From NCBI GenBank assembly GCA_964646855.1, contig CAZYHQ010000002.1:9127-73126 (forward strand): 64,000 bases of DNA, in the 5' to 3' direction. A model generated the notes under the pieces. That model saw only the letters and a list, made by a program, of their open reading frames with translations, ran no database searches and was not told the DNA's origin. Shown here one piece after another: positions 13,148 through 61,977 of the stretch (position 1 is its first letter; each line of letters opens with the position of its first letter). A program made the translations under genes and the position numbers. The DNA comes from an uncultured archaeon (GTDB lineage: Archaea > Aenigmatarchaeota > Aenigmatarchaeia > CG10238-14 > SCSR01).

Positions 13148-13639
13148 ATGCAGCCCAAAAATGGAAATTTCATAGCGGCAATTGCAGTCGTTGTAGCAAT
13201 TTTCGTCGGGTTCCAAGTGTGGATTCTTTCCGGGGTTTACAGCGATCCTTATCAAGAGAAATTCGGTGCAGGACTTTTCGGTCTTGTAGATCATTCTGGA
13301 GTTAGCTCAAAATCTGGCATTGGCAAATACAGCAATCTTCCTCTTGGCGAAGATGGTTTCAACACAATGGTCGAATGGGACAAAACAATAACTTTAAGCG
13401 ACGAACAGAAAAAGCAATTTGCCGGGTTTAACACGAGATTGCCTTGCTGCGGTTTCGGTTTAACAACCGAGGACGAATTTAGCGACTGCAGATGCGGACA
13501 CCATCTTGCTTACGCCGGTTTGATTAAGTATGGTTTGACGAATGGTTGGGCGCGAGGGCAAATACAAGAAGAAATTGATCAATGGAAAACGGTATTTTAT
13601 CCAATCTGTTCGCAAAATCCAAAATTGTGTGATTTATGA
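13148..13639 (+). CDS. Membrane-anchored Cys-rich protein (PCC/CxC motif), paralog of 11365..11952
   Basis: 163 aa with an N-terminal TM anchor. Shares with the paralog the block WDKTITLSDEQKK...LPCCGFG...DCRCGHHLAYAGLIKYGLTNGW. Confidence 0.7.
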   Translation: MQPKNGNFIAAIAVVVAIFVGFQVWILSGVYSDPYQEKFGAGLFGLVDHSGVSSKSGIGKYSNLPLGEDGFNTMVEWDKTITLSDEQKKQFAGFNTRLPCCGFGLTTEDEFSDCRCGHHLAYAGLIKYGLTNGWARGQIQEEIDQWKTVFYPICSQNPKLCDL

Positions 13640-14151
13640 TGGGTAAATTAACATTAGGTTTGAAAATGCTGTTTAATGAAATGCGTTATGCCGCACTCAT
13701 TGTAATTTCTTCTGTAACCATTTCAATTTTGTTCATGTATTCGATGGGCGCGTTGTACCTAGATCCTTTATTTTTCAATTACTTTGAATTCTTTGAAGAC
13801 GGGTTGCTGAACATATCGTTGAATTTTGTTTATGTAACAATTGCGCCGATATTTGCGGGCATAACAGTTGCAAGCATTGTGTACAAGTTAGTAAACTTCA
13901 AAAAAAGTGTTTTCAAAGAAGGAAGCGCAGGATCTTTAGGTTTTGCATCTGCAGCTTTTGTAACAACATGCTCGAATTGCGTGCCTGTTGCATTATATTC
14001 TTTGGGGATAACGTATGGTTTATTTCAAGCAGCATTCGCTCCATTTGTTTTGCCGTTCAAACTTCTGACAATTGCAATAATATCTTTATCTTTTTATTTT
14101 GCCACAACTAGTTTAGGACAATTTTGTAAACTGAAAAAAACTCGGAGGTGA
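13636..14151 (+). CDS. Polytopic membrane protein with TM-embedded CSNC motif
   Basis: 171 aa with about 5 hydrophobic helices and GSAGSLGFASAAFVTTCSNCVPVAL. ATGA overlap with the upstream ORF. Confidence 0.6.
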   Translation: MMGKLTLGLKMLFNEMRYAALIVISSVTISILFMYSMGALYLDPLFFNYFEFFEDGLLNISLNFVYVTIAPIFAGITVASIVYKLVNFKKSVFKEGSAGSLGFASAAFVTTCSNCVPVALYSLGITYGLFQAAFAPFVLPFKLLTIAIISLSFYFATTSLGQFCKLKKTRR

Positions 14152-25153: not shown

Positions 25154-25189
25154 ATATGAATTTAATTTCATATGAAATTAAATTCATAT
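25154..25189. promoter_or_regulatory. 36-bp perfect palindrome (putative ArsR-family operator)
   Basis: ATATGAATTTAATTTCAT|ATGAAATTAAATTCATAT was verified base by base. Its symmetry centre (25171/25172) coincides with the annotated ATG of the ArsR-family gene, in the divergent intergenic region shared with acyP. Confidence 0.6.
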
Positions 25190-25489
25190 GTTTTGTTTGT
25201 TAGGGCATTCGGGAGTCCCTTAAGATTGCAAATTCTTGAAGTGTTAAAGAAATCGCCTAAATCTGTAACGCAAATTTGTGATGAACTGGGAGTCGAACAA
25301 AGCAAGATTTCTCATAACTTAAGATGTCTTGTAGATTGCGGTTTTGTGAAAAACAAGAAGGAAGGTAGGAAGCGAGTTTATTCTTTAAATAAAGAAACGG
25401 TTTTCCCGTTGATGAAAATCATAGATAGACACATCGACAAATACAAAGACCATTTAGTTGCTTGTGGTGTGATAAAGGAGGTTGTATAA
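25172..25489 (+). CDS. ArsR/SmtB-family metalloregulator
   Basis: 105 aa: FGSPLRLQILEVLKKSPKSVTQICDELGVEQSKISHNLRCLVDCGFV (wHTH) with C-terminal Cys residues. It lies immediately upstream of merA. Confidence 0.85.
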   Translation: MKLNSYVLFVRAFGSPLRLQILEVLKKSPKSVTQICDELGVEQSKISHNLRCLVDCGFVKNKKEGRKRVYSLNKETVFPLMKIIDRHIDKYKDHLVACGVIKEVV

Positions 25490-25570
25490 ATGAAAACGAA
25501 AACATTGTGTGGCAATGAGGGAGAAGGCGGTTGTTCTCCATTCGTTCCAGATAATTTTAAAAAAATGTGA
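25490..25570 (+). CDS. Mini-ORF with Cys pair, in frame with merA across a TGA
   Basis: Absent from the ORF track (26 aa): MKTKTLCGNEGEGGCSPFVPDNFKKM. The strong SD AAGGAGGT ends 7 nt before the ATG. Its TGA stop (25568-70) is in the same frame as the merA ORF. Confidence 0.4.
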   Translation: MKTKTLCGNEGEGGCSPFVPDNFKKM

Positions 25571-25600
25571 GGTGAAAAAATTATACAAGAAAAATTTGAC

Positions 25601-27001
25601 TTGATAATTCTAGGACAAGGGTCAGCTGCTTTCGCCGCAGCGATAAAAGCAAATGATTTGGGAATAAAAACAGCTATGGTTGGAGGCAATGCAACTCCTG
25701 GCACAGTTATTGGTGGAACTTGTGTTAATGTCGGTTGCATGCCGAGCAAAAATCTGATCACAGTAGGAACTCTCTACTATCATGCTATGAACAATTCTTT
25801 TGAAGGCATTAAATACGAGAAAGGAAGGCTCAATTTCAAGAAAGTTATTGAACAAAAAGATAGGCTAGTAAAGAAATTCAGAAAAGAAAAATATGCTAAT
25901 GTTATAAAAAGCTTAGAGAATGTCACCCACTACGAAGGTAGAGGAAAGTTCGTTTCGAAAAACGAAGTAAAAGTTGGAAATAAAGTTTTGCTCGGAGGAA
26001 AATTTGTAATTGCAACGGGTGCGCGAGCACACATTTTACCGATAAAAGGAATTGAAAAGATTGGTTATCTGACGAACGAAGAAGCTTTGGATTTGAAAGA
26101 ATTACCGAAGTCCATGTGTGTGATCGGTGGGCGTGCGTTGGGTTTGGAATTCGCACAGATGTACGCACAATTCGGAACGAAAGTTACTGTTTTGCAGCGT
26201 AGTGAAAGAATATTACCAGAAGACGAACCGGAAATTTCTTTAGCACTTACACGATACCTCGAAGAAATAGGAATAAAAATTCATACCAACACTTCAATAA
26301 ATTTCGTTGCTAAGAAAAGTAAAAATAAGATAATCAACTTCACTACTGGCGGTCGGACGAAAGAAATTGTATGTGAACAACTTCTATTAGCTACTGGTAG
26401 AAAACCCAACACTGAATATCTTGACTTGGAAAAAGTTGCAGTGAAAACTAATGAGAAAGGTTTTATTCTGGTTAACAACGAAATGCAAACATCTACTTCG
26501 CATATTCGGGCTGCTGGAGATGTGATCGGCGAGCCTATGCTTGAAACCATAGCAGCAAAAGAAGGGGCTGTTGCCGTGGAAAACACATTCACCAAAAATA
26601 AAAAGAAAATTAATTTTACAGAAGTACCAAGTGCCGTTTTCACCTATCCTGAAGTCGCTCGCGTTGGACTGACGGATGCCGAGGCTGTCAAACAAGGCAT
26701 AAGATGTAATTGTGGAGTTCTGCCGTTAGAATTAGTTCCAAAAGCGCATGTTATCGGCGATACGAGAGGGCTAGTAAAAATCGTAGCCAACAATGATACA
26801 AAACAGATATTAGGTGTGCACATATTGGCTCCGCATGCCGCAGACTTGATACACGAGGGAGTACTTGCAGTTAAAAATAAACTCACCATTGATGATATAA
26901 TCGACACTGTTCACATTTTCCCCACATTATCGGAAGCTATTAAATTAGCTGCACAGTCATTCTACAAGGACGTAAGTAAATTAAGTTGTTGTATCGAGTG
27001 A
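25601..27001 (+). CDS. merA: Mercuric reductase core (no NmerA domain)
   Basis: Redox-active GGTCVNVGCMPSK, FAD and NAD(P) Rossmann motifs, and a C-terminal vicinal Cys pair (KDVSKLSCCIE) diagnostic of MerA. The start is uncertain: TTG 25601 truncates the KFDLIILGQGSAAF strand (see finding). Confidence 0.85.
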   Translation: MIILGQGSAAFAAAIKANDLGIKTAMVGGNATPGTVIGGTCVNVGCMPSKNLITVGTLYYHAMNNSFEGIKYEKGRLNFKKVIEQKDRLVKKFRKEKYANVIKSLENVTHYEGRGKFVSKNEVKVGNKVLLGGKFVIATGARAHILPIKGIEKIGYLTNEEALDLKELPKSMCVIGGRALGLEFAQMYAQFGTKVTVLQRSERILPEDEPEISLALTRYLEEIGIKIHTNTSINFVAKKSKNKIINFTTGGRTKEIVCEQLLLATGRKPNTEYLDLEKVAVKTNEKGFILVNNEMQTSTSHIRAAGDVIGEPMLETIAAKEGAVAVENTFTKNKKKINFTEVPSAVFTYPEVARVGLTDAEAVKQGIRCNCGVLPLELVPKAHVIGDTRGLVKIVANNDTKQILGVHILAPHAADLIHEGVLAVKNKLTIDDIIDTVHIFPTLSEAIKLAAQSFYKDVSKLSCCIE

Positions 27002-27006
27002 TATGA

Positions 27007-27165
27007 ATGGTAAAAAGAATAGCACATGAAGGGGTAAATTATTTTGCATGCAACATCTGCGATTTCAGATATGCAGATAAAAAAACCGCAGAGGAGTGCG
27101 AAAATTATTGCAGAACTCACAAGAGCTGTTCGATGGAAATCACGAAGCATGCCGTGAAGATTTAA
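27007..27165 (+). CDS. Small Cys-rich zinc-ribbon-like protein
   Basis: Absent from the ORF track (52 aa): MVKRIAHEGVNYFACNICDFRYADKKTAEECENYCRTHKSCSMEITKHAVKI (CxxC...CxxxC...C). It begins 6 nt after the merA stop. Confidence 0.5.
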   Translation: MVKRIAHEGVNYFACNICDFRYADKKTAEECENYCRTHKSCSMEITKHAVKI

Positions 27166-27197
27166 ATTGTAAATAGCGAATAAATAAAAGAGGCTGT

Positions 27198-27449
27198 TTG
27201 ATGACCAAAGTAACTGTGGTTTACACAAAGACATGCCAGTATTGTCCAATTGCTAAGACATTGTGGAAAAGTTTGCAGAAACAACTGAAATTCGATTACG
27301 AAGAGGTTGACGCGGTTTCTACCAAAGGCCAACAGCTGGTGGCAAAATTCGGCATAATGGCTGTGCCGACAACGATAATCAATGACGGCAAAGATGTCAT
27401 CGTAGGCGTGCCGTCAAAAGAAAAAGCGATTGCAGCTGTGAGCAAGTGA
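27198..27449 (+). CDS. Small thioredoxin/glutaredoxin-like protein (CQYC)
   Basis: 83 aa: VVYTKTCQYCPIAK ... MAVPTTIIND, a thioredoxin fold with cis-Pro. Confidence 0.8.
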   Translation: MMTKVTVVYTKTCQYCPIAKTLWKSLQKQLKFDYEEVDAVSTKGQQLVAKFGIMAVPTTIINDGKDVIVGVPSKEKAIAAVSK

Positions 27450-27453
27450 TGAA

Positions 27454-27585
27454 ATGGCGGAAGAAGTTAAACATGTCGGTGAAAAAACCCAGCTAATTTT
27501 CGAGTGTGCAGTCTGCAAAAAAATTTACAAGCAGCCTGGCATGTGTGCCGAGTGCCAATTAATTCTAAAGCCCAAGGGCGGTTGA
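27454..27585 (+). CDS. Small CxxC...CxxC zinc-ribbon protein
   Basis: Absent from the ORF track (43 aa): MAEEVKHVGEKTQLIFECAVCKKIYKQPGMCAECQLILKPKGG. Confidence 0.4.
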   Translation: MAEEVKHVGEKTQLIFECAVCKKIYKQPGMCAECQLILKPKGG

Positions 27586-27589
27586 TCGA

Positions 27590-28681
27590 TTGCAGCAATT
27601 GTTAGAGAAACCAAAAGACATAGAAGAAATTAGTAGCGAAACTGTTCAAACTACTGTTCAAATTCAGCCTGCAGAAGAAGAGAAAGATGTATACGACACA
27701 ATAATCGTAGGCGGCGCCGGAGCAGCACTGACAGCAGCAATTTACGCTGCACGACGTGCGATGAAGACTTTAGTCGTAATGAAGGGATTGGGAGGGCAAG
27801 CTGCTATGACTGACCAGATTGAAAATTATCCAGGTTTTCTTAATGTCGGTGGCCTGCCACTGATGCAGAGATTTTTGAAACAAGCAACAAAATCCGGCGC
27901 CGAAGTTCTTACAGGTTTGGAAGTAAAAGAAATTATAGAAGAGAAGGGAACCGACGGCAAGCCAGAATTTATTGTGAAAGCCGACTCGTCAGAGTACAGG
28001 GCGAAAACTGTAATACTTTCATTTGGAAAAACTCCGAGAAATTTGGATGTTCCTGGTGAGGACAAATTCGGGAACAAGGGAGTCTCCTACTGTGCCACCT
28101 GCGACTTGCCGTTGTTTGCGAATAAAACTGTTGCTGTTGTAGGCGGAGGAAATTCTGCTCTCGATGCCGCAACTTATGCGTCAAAAATTTGCAAAAAAGT
28201 CTACCTCATTCATAGGCGAGACGAATTTCGTGGGTTCGAATATTTGATTGAAAGGGCAAAGACTGATCCAAAAATCGAAATTCTGTACAGCAATGTTGTA
28301 AAAGAAATAAAAGGCGAAGTCAAGGTCCATTCGGTCGTTGTGCAAGATTTGAAAACAAATCAGACGAAAGAAATTTCTGTAGAGGGGGTTTTCGTCGAAG
28401 TTGGCTCTATCGCAAAAACGGACTTTATAAAAAGCTTGGTCAAGCTGGATAATATCGGACAGGTAATCATAAGCAGAAATTGTGAAACGTTTTATCCAGA
28501 CAAAGATGAAATCCGTCCCGGAATATTCGCTGCAGGCGACTTGACAACCACACCTTTCAAGCAGATTGTTGTTTCAGCCGGCGAAGGTTGCATTGCTGCC
28601 CTGCAGGCGTATAATTATCTACATGAACTACAACCTACTTTTGTTGCGGACTGGGTTGCAAAGAAACATGTCAAGAAATAA
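27590..28681 (+). CDS. trxB: Thioredoxin-disulfide reductase with acidic N-terminal extension
   Basis: 363 aa with GGAGAA FAD motif, redox CATCD, and GGGNSALD NADPH motif. TTG start, and an extension of about 35 aa (QPAEEEKDVYD) precedes the Rossmann fold. Confidence 0.9.
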   Translation: MQQLLEKPKDIEEISSETVQTTVQIQPAEEEKDVYDTIIVGGAGAALTAAIYAARRAMKTLVVMKGLGGQAAMTDQIENYPGFLNVGGLPLMQRFLKQATKSGAEVLTGLEVKEIIEEKGTDGKPEFIVKADSSEYRAKTVILSFGKTPRNLDVPGEDKFGNKGVSYCATCDLPLFANKTVAVVGGGNSALDAATYASKICKKVYLIHRRDEFRGFEYLIERAKTDPKIEILYSNVVKEIKGEVKVHSVVVQDLKTNQTKEISVEGVFVEVGSIAKTDFIKSLVKLDNIGQVIISRNCETFYPDKDEIRPGIFAAGDLTTTPFKQIVVSAGEGCIAALQAYNYLHELQPTFVADWVAKKHVKK

Positions 28682-61859: not shown

Positions 61860-61888
61860 TAGAATAAATTGAAAGTTAAAAATAAATG

Positions 61889-61977
61889 CGCCCTCGGGGG
61901 GATTTGAACCCACGACCAACCGGTTAACAGCTTCACCTGCTATAGCATCGGGTGCTCTACCGCTGAGCTACGAGGGC
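61889..61977 (-). tRNA. tRNA, probably Asn (GUU), with an atypically placed insertion/intron
   Basis: 89 nt: acceptor GCCCTCG/CGAGGGC, D arm GCTC-AGCGGTA-GAGC, T arm GTGGG-TTCAAAT-CCCCC (one mismatch), and a perfect loop CUGUUAA followed by CCGGT. About 17 extra nt (ATGCTATAGCAGGTGAA) lie 5' of the loop inside the 5' anticodon-stem strand. Confidence 0.65.

What the first reader, a model, noticed from the sequence alone, without database searches (positions are those of the whole stretch)
25490..25603. merA lacks a canonical start; an SD-driven Cys-pair mini-ORF sits in the same frame, separated only by TGA
The MerA reading frame opens at 25571 (GEKIIQEKFDLIILGQGSAAF...). Its first canonical start codon is TTG 25601, which clips the first beta-strand of the FAD Rossmann fold.

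The stop that closes the frame upstream (TGA 25568-70) terminates a 26-codon ORF, MKTKTLCGNEGEGGCSPFVPDNFKKM. That ORF has an excellent SD (AAGGAGGT, ending 7 nt before the ATG) and is in the same frame as merA.

Three readings are possible:
- (a) Near-cognate ATT 25580 or ATA 25583 initiation behind the GAGGTG at 25569-74.
- (b) TGA read-through or recoding that fuses a flexible Cys-pair arm onto MerA. This could act as a miniature substitute for the missing NmerA metal-handoff domain.
- (c) An independent leader peptide.

TGA is clearly a normal stop elsewhere in this window, including for merA itself.
Basis: partly seen in the sequence, partly recalled or inferred. Interest (0 to 1): 0.6.

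Follow-up and report, generated by a model that had tools for sequence, protein, structure and literature searches.

The report
Mutated merA start beside conserved mini-gene
In this tiny groundwater archaeon the mercury-reductase gene has ATA where its relatives have the ATG start. The 26-codon two-cysteine ORF in front of it is a separate, conserved small gene that ends at a real TGA stop, so nothing here points to stop-codon recoding.

Summary
The sequence is exactly as described. arsR ends at 25489. A 26-codon ORF runs from ATG 25490 to TGA 25568-70. The merA frame opens at 25571, and TTG 25601 is its first canonical start.

The recoding idea is not supported.
- TGA is an ordinary stop genome-wide, there is no tRNA-Sec, and there is no structured element at the junction.
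- No MerA relative carries a Cys-pair N-terminal arm.
- The mini-ORF has three distinct homologues in other loci. They lie in a different frame from merA or have no merA nearby. All keep M1, C7, G8, G11, G13, G14, C15, F18 and P20, with mostly synonymous changes. It is therefore an independent, unannotated small gene.

merA's real start position is 25583. The closest relative (82% identical) has ATG exactly there behind the same GAGGT SD, and the window has ATA, a G-to-A change at 25585. Independent contigs from two samples show the same bases.

MerA is otherwise intact and has evolved under purifying selection. It is most likely translated weakly from ATA, or it has recently been silenced.

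A side result: a clade of soil-archaeal arsR-merA loci keeps ACG at the same start position, often with no canonical start at all.

The parts
25154..25189 (.). 36-bp perfect palindrome centred on the arsR ATG, with a TATA-like box just upstream. Probably the ArsR operator of a leaderless operon transcript.
Evidence: Sequence printed (ATATGAATTTAATTTCAT|ATGAAATTAAATTCATAT). The function is inferred.
25172..25489 (+). arsR/SmtB-family metalloregulator, 105 aa. Cysteines lie in CLVDCG and in the C-terminal ACG motif. Its stop TAA abuts the mini-ORF ATG.
   Evidence: Pfam HTH_5 1.6e-15. NCBIfam NF033788 76.5 bits. 75% identical to the L009 ArsR and 55% to the L080 ArsR.
25475..25482 (+). Shine-Dalgarno AAGGAGGT, 7 nt before the mini-ORF ATG.
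   Evidence: All four family members have an SD plus ATG. SD-like motifs precede only about 7% of genes in this genome, against 2.8% in the control.
25490..25570 (+). Conserved small gene, 26 aa, with a Cys-x7/8-Cys Gly-rich loop (MKTKTLCGNEGEGGCSPFVPDNFKKM). It ends at a genuine TGA stop.
   Evidence: Homologues: L009/L010 (33 aa), G018/L051 (26 aa) and L080/P0124 (29-34 aa). In codons 6-20 against L080 there are 8 synonymous and 1 nonsynonymous difference. No Pfam or NCBIfam family.
25569..25575 (+). SD GAGGTGA for merA. It overlaps the mini-ORF stop and lies 7 nt before ATA 25583.
   Evidence: The homologous GGAGGT precedes the ATG of L008, and TGAGGTGAAA is also conserved after the L080 mini-ORF.
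25583..25585 (+). ATA at the family's start position. The ancestral ATG carries a G-to-A change at 25585. Most likely a weak near-cognate start.
   Evidence: The L008 alignment reads ...AAAATT ATG CAA GAA AAA TTC GAC TTG against the window's ...AAAATT ATA CAA GAA AAA TTT GAC TTG. 100 of 119 relatives have 8-11 residues before the GxG motif, and ATA gives 10.
25601..25603 (+). TTG, the first canonical start codon in the frame. It is a conserved Leu codon of beta-1 and an alternative start that would give a 466-aa product.
   Evidence: It lies 30 nt after the upstream stop and has no SD.
25583..27001 (+). merA, core-type mercuric reductase of 472 codons counted from ATA, without an NmerA domain. 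Stop is TGA.
   Evidence: TIGR02053 552.5 bits against a cut-off of 454. Best PDB matches are MerA 4YWO and 5X1Y. CVNVGC, Y104, F446 and the C-terminal CC are present. dN about 0.12 with dS saturated against L008 and L009.
27007..28681 (+). The rest of the operon: a 52-aa Cys-ribbon protein (27007-27165), a thioredoxin (27198-27449), a 43-aa Cys-ribbon protein (27454-27585) and a thioredoxin reductase-like flavoprotein (27590-28681).
   Evidence: The gaps between genes are 4-32 nt.

Best explanation
Two unrelated things lie next to each other.

(1) The 26-codon ORF is an independent, conserved small gene of a previously unnamed family. It is translated from its own strong SD and ATG and ends at a genuine TGA. 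Its product is a soluble peptide with two cysteines on a Gly-rich loop (C-G-x2-G-x0/1-G-G-C-x2-F-x-P). It is made together with ArsR-controlled soft-metal genes and most likely binds Hg(II) or other thiophilic metals as a small chaperone or buffer. That function is inferred.

(2) merA has its own translation-initiation region: the SD GAGGTGA, 7 nt of spacer, then the family's start position at 25583. There the ancestral ATG has become ATA through a G-to-A change at 25585. MerA is most probably still made from ATA at low efficiency. Initiation would be SD-directed and perhaps helped by ribosomes that terminate 12 nt upstream. This step is also inferred.

That the mini-ORF and merA share a frame is coincidence, a 1-in-3 chance.
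For: Independent small gene:
- There are three further distinct homologues. L009/L010 has arsR, membrane protein, mini-ORF and merA, with the mini-ORF in frame -1 and overlapping the merA ATG by 14 nt. G018/L051 has no merA, and the mini-ORF precedes a CxxC membrane protein. L080 has arsR and the mini-ORF followed by unrelated genes.
- Nine positions are invariant.
- The profile hit to P0124 scores E = 7.9e-7 against 1.84 billion proteins, and the hit in G018 scores 1.2e-12 per genome.
- Codons 6-20 against L080 show 8 synonymous and 1 nonsynonymous difference.
- Every copy has an SD and an ATG.

Start at 25583:
- The closest relative, L008 (82% identical), has ATG aligned to the ATA, with the same SD and spacer and identical following residues QEKFDLII.
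- 100 of 119 relatives have 8-11 residues before the GxG motif. ATA gives 10, TTG gives 4.
- Neutral sites between the window and L008 are saturated (dS above 2.6), yet the SD and spacer are nearly identical.

Real bases: two separately assembled samples agree.

No recoding:
- 144 of 466 long ORFs end in TGA.
- No tRNA-Sec or tRNA with anticodon tca was found.
- Folding of the junction gives z = -0.9.
- merA's stop is 5 nt from the next gene.

Intact enzyme: all MerA signature residues are present.

Support for non-canonical starts at this position: in soil-archaeal arsR-merA loci the same position is ACG in 8 distinct sequences, 5 of them with no in-frame ATG/GTG/TTG before beta-1.

Coupling by termination-reinitiation falls off within about 20 nt (PMC10666635). 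This argues against reinitiation at TTG, which is 30 nt from the stop, more than at ATA, which is 12 nt away.
Against: - There is no expression or protein evidence. No RNA runs hold the locus.
- ATA is seen only in this one lineage, and the nearest relative is only 82% identical. The change cannot be dated and could be a fresh inactivating mutation.
- Near-cognate ATA initiation is very inefficient in the systems where it has been measured (general knowledge, not tested here).
- A genome-wide scan found no other gene here that clearly depends on ATA or ATT.
- The MAG has no 16S rRNA gene, so the anti-SD could not be checked.
- The metal-binding role of the peptide rests only on its two cysteines and its gene neighbourhood.
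- The peptide family is small: four distinct sequences, and 2 of 371 genomes of the phylum.
Confidence: 0.6

Rival explanations
1. merA has recently been silenced. The ATG-to-ATA change abolishes useful translation, and the gene is a young pseudogene that has not yet accumulated other damage. The mini-ORF remains functional.
For: ATA occurs only here among about 160 relatives inspected. merA looks laterally acquired and dispensable: relatives in the same family have only 32-36% identical flavoproteins. No other gene in this genome clearly uses ATA.
Against: The 472-codon frame is fully intact, with every catalytic signature present. The same allele is present in at least two samples. The SD and spacing are preserved. 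A related clade keeps the near-cognate ACG at this position across diverged members, which shows that merA can persist without a canonical start.
Confidence: 0.25
2. MerA is translated from TTG 25601, giving a 466-aa enzyme that starts MIILGQG. Ribosomes that finish the mini-ORF would reinitiate there.
For: TTG is the first canonical start. It removes only two positions of the family models. The gene caller behind the database entry chose it (P0001).
Against: There is no SD within reach. TTG is 30 nt from the upstream stop, whereas coupling is nearly abolished at about 20 nt (PMC10666635). TTG is the conserved Leu codon in relatives that start upstream. Other database proteins that start at this Leu are miscalls with an upstream ATG or TTG (P0070, P0118), or are themselves cases with no canonical start (P0092).
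Confidence: 0.1
3. TGA 25568-70 is read through or recoded (Sec, Trp or Cys), which fuses the Cys-pair peptide to MerA as a miniature NmerA-like arm.
For: The two ORFs are in frame and separated only by the TGA. The MerA core lacks NmerA. A Cys pair on a flexible arm would make chemical sense.
Against: - In L009 the homologous mini-ORF is in another frame and overlaps merA.
- In L080 the same TGAGGTGA ends the mini-ORF, and read-through would add only 13 residues before TAG.
- G018 has the mini-ORF without merA.
- None of 119 MerA relatives has a Cys-pair extension.
- No tRNA-Sec or suppressor tRNA was found, and TGA closes 31% of long ORFs.
- There is no stimulatory structure.
- Only 5 nt separate merA from the next gene, so an archaeal 3' SECIS has no room.
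Confidence: 0.03
4. The ATA and/or the TGA is a sequencing or assembly error, and the real genome has an ordinary ATG.
For: The genome is a MAG from short reads. The junction is A-rich. Contigs of two of the four runs break across 25534-25653.
Against: Contigs from X1 (depth 18) and X4 were assembled independently and match the window base for base across the junction. The breaks in X2 and X3 coincide with many co-occurring merA alleles from other organisms that share k-mers, not with a variant of this strain.
Confidence: 0.04
5. The mini-ORF is only a regulatory leader (uORF) whose translation controls merA, and its peptide has no function of its own.
For: It sits directly upstream of merA, has the strongest SD in the operon, and its stop overlaps the merA SD.
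Against: The amino-acid sequence is conserved, with mostly synonymous change. This holds in loci where the downstream gene is not merA (L080, G018).
Confidence: 0.05

Closest known systems
Archaeal core-type mer operons, e.g. Sulfolobus/Saccharolobus merR-merH-merA-merI and Metallosphaera sedula MerA (PDB 4YWO)
   Same: A MerA without NmerA and with the archaeal Phe at the Tyr605 position. The gene order is regulator, small accessory gene, merA, then small unknown ORFs. The best solved match is 4YWO (2.6e-107).
   Different: The regulator is ArsR-type. The small gene between regulator and merA is a 26-aa two-Cys peptide with no TRASH motif and no similarity to MerH (the layout of merRHAI and the TRASH domain of MerH are recalled from the literature, not tested here). 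merA has ATA at its start.
NmerA / MerP heavy-metal-associated (HMA) domains with GMTCxxC
   Same: A Cys pair that could take Hg(II) and pass it to the MerA C-terminal Cys pair. NmerA matters when cellular thiols are scarce (title of Ledwidge et al. 2005, as cited in PMC8261052).
   Different: There is no HMA fold or motif and no Pfam hit. The peptide is about 26 aa rather than about 70 aa, its cysteines are 7-8 residues apart rather than CxxC, it is encoded separately, and it also occurs without merA.
Near-cognate start codons with SD, such as the AUU start of bacterial infC (general knowledge)
   Same: A single-base variant of AUG at a start position with a good SD at proper spacing. Low-efficiency initiation is expected.
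   Different: No evidence of regulation or of actual use here. Archaeal initiation factors differ from bacterial ones. ATA is unique to this lineage, whereas ACG is conserved in another merA clade.
Translational coupling by termination-reinitiation in archaea and bacteria (PMC6728339, PMC10666635)
   Same: The upstream ORF ends next to the downstream start, and its stop overlaps the downstream SD. In L009 the mini-ORF and merA overlap by 14 nt.
   Different: In the window the gap is 12 nt to ATA and 30 nt to TTG. Typical coupled pairs overlap by 1 or 4 nt, and about 20 nt abolishes coupling.

Membership tests
Mercuric reductase MerA (TIGR02053; signatures as used in PMC8261052) | Redox-active Cys pair CxxxxC (207/212 in Bacillus RC607 numbering) | tested here: met
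   GGTCVNVGCMPSK aligns with GGTCVNVGCVPSK of 4YWO and 5X1Y.
Mercuric reductase MerA (TIGR02053; signatures as used in PMC8261052) | Vicinal Cys pair at the C-terminus (628/629) | tested here: met
   ...SKLSCCIE* aligns with ...SRLSCCV of 4YWO.
Mercuric reductase MerA (TIGR02053; signatures as used in PMC8261052) | Tyr264, and Tyr605 (bacteria) or Phe605 (archaea) | tested here: met
   Y104 (KEKY) aligns with the Y of 5X1Y (NQKY). F446 (HIFPT) aligns with F of 4YWO (HMFPT) and with Y of 5X1Y (APYLT). F446 lies 23 residues before the CC pair, matching 605 against 628. The criteria were read.
Mercuric reductase MerA (TIGR02053; signatures as used in PMC8261052) | Whole-protein score above the curated equivalog cut-off | tested here: met
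   552.5 bits against a cut-off of 454.45, covering model positions 1-464 of 465 from residue 5.
Selenocysteine (UGA) recoding in archaea | tRNA-Sec gene in the genome | tested here: not met
   ARAGORN finds none. Hits to RF01852 are all below the cut-off and coincide with tRNA-Ser, His, Arg and Phe. The MAG is 89% complete, so absence is not absolute.
Selenocysteine (UGA) recoding in archaea | SECIS hairpin in the 3' UTR, and a TGA that aligns with Cys or Sec in homologues | tested here: not met
   Only 5 nt lie between the merA stop and the next ORF. Homologous mini-ORFs end at TGA, TAA or TAA and are not continued into merA.
Programmed stop-codon read-through fusion | The in-frame arrangement and downstream coding continuity are conserved among homologues | tested here: not met
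   L009 is in frame -1 with an overlap. L080 and G018 have other downstream genes. No fused relatives were found. No stimulatory structure, z = -0.9.
HMA domain (NmerA, MerP, CopZ) | A beta-alpha-beta-beta-alpha-beta domain of about 70 aa with a GMxCxxC motif | tested here: not met
   The peptide is 26 aa with a C-x7-C pattern. It has no Pfam or NCBIfam hit at E <= 1.
TRASH/YHS domain (MerH-type chaperones) | A pattern of three cysteines, C-x(19-22)-C-x3-C (recalled from the literature) | tested here: not met
   Only two cysteines, 7-8 residues apart.
Termination-reinitiation coupled gene pair | Stop and start overlap or lie within a few nt of each other | tested here: inconclusive
   The gap is 12 nt to ATA and 30 nt to TTG. 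The paper reports near-complete loss of coupling at about 20 nt.

The most novel reading that the evidence does not exclude
Archaeal arsR-merA operons repeatedly place merA behind the stop of a short upstream ORF whose stop is embedded in the merA SD (..AGGTGA..), and they use a near-cognate start: ATA here, and a conserved ACG in a soil Nitrososphaerales-type clade. MerA synthesis would then be deliberately weak and tied to translation of the upstream ORF. In this lineage the upstream ORF is a new family of 26-34-aa Cys-pair peptides that act in trans as a minimal NmerA-like Hg(II) hand-off or thiol buffer in cells with few low-molecular-weight thiols.
Probability: 0.15. Interest if true: 0.6.

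Novelty: new variant of a known kind. Interest (0 to 1): 0.35.

Why it matters
- It removes a tempting but wrong recoding story. An in-frame TGA between a Cys-rich mini-ORF and an enzyme is here just two adjacent genes.
- It adds a conserved small gene that annotation pipelines mostly miss, linked to ArsR-controlled mercury and soft-metal genes in small archaeal genomes. A 26-aa peptide is directly testable by synthesis and metal-binding assays.
- It shows that merA genes without a canonical start are not rare accidents. One clade conserves ACG at the start position. This matters for gene calling, because truncated MerA entries exist in databases, and it offers a natural test case for near-cognate initiation in archaea.

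Tried and rejected
- Alternative genetic code: rejected. TGA closes 144 of 466 long ORFs, and treating it as sense only merges ORFs.
- Selenocysteine: no tRNA-Sec.
- RNA structure or a known RNA family at the junction: none.
- Frameshift routes: the GTG codons at 25567 and 25572 are out of frame and run into stops. The A7 run is not in a slippery register, and a single shift would leave the merA frame.
- Genome-wide use of ATA or ATT as a start: no convincing other case.
- RNA-seq evidence: no runs.
- 16S anti-SD check: the MAG has no SSU rRNA.
- Wider search for the peptide: 371 genomes of the phylum gave only G000 and G018. G276/L083 and the other weak hits are spurious. The repeat proteins P0122, P0123 and P0125 are false hits.
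- Most merA loci fetched from genome and metagenome collections have arsR directly before merA and no mini-ORF.
- P0061: its DNA could not be fetched.
- Variant alleles of this strain at the junction: none visible in Logan contigs. The contig breaks in X2 and X3 are explained by the many other merA alleles present.
Full report
**Setting.**
The window is C2:9127-73126 of a 648-kb, 15-contig, 41% GC genome bin that is 89% complete. It carries an archaeal RNase P RNA and comes from groundwater metagenomes. It is a DPANN-type small archaeal genome, and I did not determine its phylum. The finding lies in a plus-strand operon with the order arsR, mini-ORF, merA, a 52-aa Cys-ribbon protein, thioredoxin, a 43-aa Cys-ribbon protein and a thioredoxin-reductase-like flavoprotein. 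The gaps between genes are 0-32 nt. A CopA-type ATPase lies upstream.

**Observation.**
- arsR ends at TAA 25487-89.
- AAGGAGGT (25475-82) lies 7 nt before ATG 25490.
- The 26-codon ORF ends at TGA 25568-70.
- The merA frame opens at 25571, and its first ATG/GTG/TTG is TTG 25601.
- merA ends at TGA 26999-27001.

One statement is too strong. The TTG start removes only the first two positions of the Pfam and TIGRFAM models.

The bases are real. Contigs assembled separately from two samples, X1 at depth 18 and X4, match the window with no differences across 25300-25900. In two other runs the contigs break between about 25534 and 25653. At lower stringency that stretch collects many merA alleles from other organisms, all with ordinary ATG starts in their upstream sequence. 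The breaks are therefore assembly-graph effects, not evidence for a variant of this strain.

**Where merA starts.**
A search of 5.8 billion proteins returned thousands of MerA relatives, and the best is 82% identical. Of the best 119, 100 have 8-11 residues before the GxG motif, typically M-x-x-[YF]-[DE]-L-[IV]-I-L-G.

The closest relative (P0002, locus L008) reads GGAGGTTGAAAAAAATT ATG CAA GAA AAA TTC GAC TTG ATA ATT. The window reads GAGGTGAAAAAATT ATA CAA GAA AAA TTT GAC TTG ATA ATT. ATA 25583 is therefore the exact counterpart of the relative's ATG. It has the same SD and spacer and is followed by the same residues, QEKFDLII. The difference is one base, G to A at 25585.

Synonymous sites between the two genes are saturated (dS above 2.6) while dN is 0.12. 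The near-identity of the SD and spacer therefore reflects constraint on this initiation region, and merA as a whole has evolved under strong purifying selection.

The protein is a bona fide core MerA.
- TIGR02053 scores 552 bits against a cut-off of 454.
- The best solved matches are MerA 4YWO and 5X1Y.
- The signatures used by Christakis et al. (PMC8261052) are all present: CVNVGC, the Tyr after the active site, the archaeal Phe at position 605, and the C-terminal CC pair.

**No recoding.**
- TGA closes 144 of 466 long ORFs.
- No tRNA-Sec and no tRNA with anticodon tca was found.
- The junction RNA folds no better than shuffled sequence, z = -0.9.
- Only 5 nt separate merA from the next gene, so an archaeal 3' SECIS has no room.
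- None of the 119 relatives has an N-terminal Cys-pair extension.

**The mini-ORF is a gene of its own.**
In L009/L010, two JGI metagenome contigs whose MerA is 81% identical, the order is arsR, a 171-aa CxxC membrane protein, a 33-codon ORF (MDIKTACGKNGGGCASFQPENVEEIIGERNAEI) and merA. That ORF has AAGGAGGT and an ATG. It lies in frame -1 relative to merA and overlaps the merA ATG by 14 nt.

A profile of the two peptides found MKTKEMCGGKGGGCPSFQPKEELEQK in G018, a genome of the same family. It scored 1.5e-6 with the first profile and 1.2e-12 with the four-sequence profile. G018 has no merA there, and the ORF precedes a 184-aa CxxC membrane protein.

An exhaustive HMMER search of 1.84 billion representative proteins found one more member, P0124 (E = 7.9e-7), which reads (MENDK)MKINMLCGKEGEGGCSPFVPEVPNSLEKN. 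Its contig, L080, has arsR abutting the mini-ORF, followed by unrelated genes. The stop context TGAGGTGAAA is the same as in the window, and read-through would add only 13 residues.

The four sequences share M1, C7, G8, G11, G13, G14, C15, F18 and P20. Between the window and L080, codons 6-20 differ at 8 synonymous positions and 1 nonsynonymous position. This is a clear signature of selection on the peptide.

There is no Pfam or NCBIfam family, and only 2 of 371 genomes of the phylum carry it. The family is real but rare.

It is always embedded in cysteine-rich soft-metal gene sets. It sits with ArsR in three of the four loci, with a CxxC membrane protein in two, and with MerA in two. A homologue of that membrane protein lies elsewhere in the window (13636-14151) without a mini-ORF.

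Sharing a frame with merA in the window has a 1-in-3 chance and is not conserved.

**How MerA is made here.**
This part is inferred. SD-like motifs precede only about 7% of genes in this genome, against 2.8% at control ATGs. The retained GAGGTGA 7 nt before ATA is therefore a deliberate initiation site.

TTG 25601 has no SD and lies 30 nt after the mini-ORF stop. Huber et al. found that about 20 nt between stop and start almost abolishes termination-reinitiation in Haloferax and E. coli (PMC10666635). I therefore rank the possibilities as follows:
- weak initiation at ATA, about 0.5;
- effective silencing of a still-intact gene, about 0.25;
- initiation at TTG, about 0.1.

A scan for other genes that use ATA or ATT in this genome found none that is convincing, so ATA is a local mutation and not a habit of the organism.

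**Support from elsewhere for non-canonical merA starts.**
In arsR-merA loci of the '...CD[VA]LER*' type, found in soil Thaumarchaeota/Nitrososphaerales MAGs and contigs, the arsR stop is embedded in GAGAGGTGA. The codon two codons after the stop is the family start position.
- It is ATG in L106, TTG in L099 and GTG in L017, L020, L023 and L127.
- It is ACG in L021, L022, L043/L046, L044, L090, L122/L123, L128 and L139.
- It is GCG in L091.

Six distinct loci have no in-frame ATG/GTG/TTG ahead of beta-1: L022, L043/L046, L090, L122/L123 (identical in two assemblies) and L139, which carry ACG, and L091, which carries GCG. Earlier AI notes from other genomes also mention merA without a canonical start, one of them with ATA. 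I did not verify those notes. This makes near-cognate initiation at merA plausible, but it does not prove it for the window.

**Function of the peptide.**
This is also inferred. Two cysteines separated by a Gly-rich loop could give linear bis-thiolate coordination of Hg(II) or Cu(I). That chemistry, together with co-expression with ArsR-regulated metal genes and occurrence both with and without merA, suggests a general soft-metal chaperone or buffer more than a dedicated MerA arm.

**Verdict.**
What remains is an ordinary point change at the merA start, plus a small but genuine new gene family and a recurring pattern of non-canonical merA starts. Interest is modest.

Noticed in passing
L021, L022, L043/L046, L044, L090, L091, L122/L123, L128, L139 (arsR-merA junctions): In a clade of soil-archaeal arsR-merA loci the arsR TGA abuts merA in the same frame. 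The codon at the family start position, two codons after the stop, is ACG in 8 distinct sequences and GCG in one. Sister loci have ATG, GTG or TTG there. Six distinct loci have no canonical start before beta-1. This looks like a conserved ACG start or, less likely, ArsR-MerA read-through.
   Followed up: partly
window 61888-61977 (-): ARAGORN calls a 90-nt 'tRNA-Pyl (cta)', and Rfam tRNA scores 47.5 bits. With the intron option ARAGORN gives a different, unconvincing Ser(gct) fold. It is probably an intron-bearing tRNA that was parsed wrongly, but a CUA anticodon was not excluded.
   Followed up: partly
window 13636-14151 (+); L009 2391-2906; L008 937-1383; L051 1613-2167: A family of 148-184-aa polytopic membrane proteins with CxxC-type motifs (TTCSNC, GCPLC, GACPAC, TCSEC) and no Pfam match. 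They lie next to merA and/or the mini-ORF in relatives. The window's copy follows a PCC-motif protein with a 4-nt overlap.
   Followed up: partly
L080 4161-4529 and 4634-6163: Downstream of arsR and the mini-ORF lie a 122-aa helical protein and a 509-aa membrane protein. They share an 'MPD..R...MK.M' type C-terminal module and have no family assignment.
   Followed up: no
window 25172-27001: arsR, the mini-ORF and merA are all in one reading frame, separated only by TAA and TGA. The arsR/mini-ORF case follows from the abutting TAAATG, which is also seen in L080.
   Followed up: yes
P0070/L011 1245; P0118/L089 1201; P0115/L122 1201: Database MerA entries with short N-termini are gene-calling artefacts or cases with no canonical start. 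L011 has an ATG five codons upstream of the called TTG, and L089 has a TTG five codons upstream. L122 was called from an internal ATG that deletes the GxGxxA motif.
   Followed up: yes
window 25555-25565: The A/T-rich stretch TTTTAAAAAAA at the 3' end of the mini-ORF lies about 20-27 nt upstream of ATA 25583 and resembles an archaeal TATA box. An internal leaderless merA transcript was not tested.
   Followed up: no
genome-wide (G000): SD-like 5-mers precede only about 7% of first ATGs (2.8% at internal ATGs), so most genes here are not SD-led. The MAG has no SSU rRNA gene.
   Followed up: yes
window 25534-25653 in runs X2 and X3: Per-run contigs of this strain break on both sides of the junction. 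At 80% likeness the stretch attracts contigs of many other merA alleles at up to about 10 times higher depth, so the community holds numerous merA-carrying organisms.
   Followed up: partly
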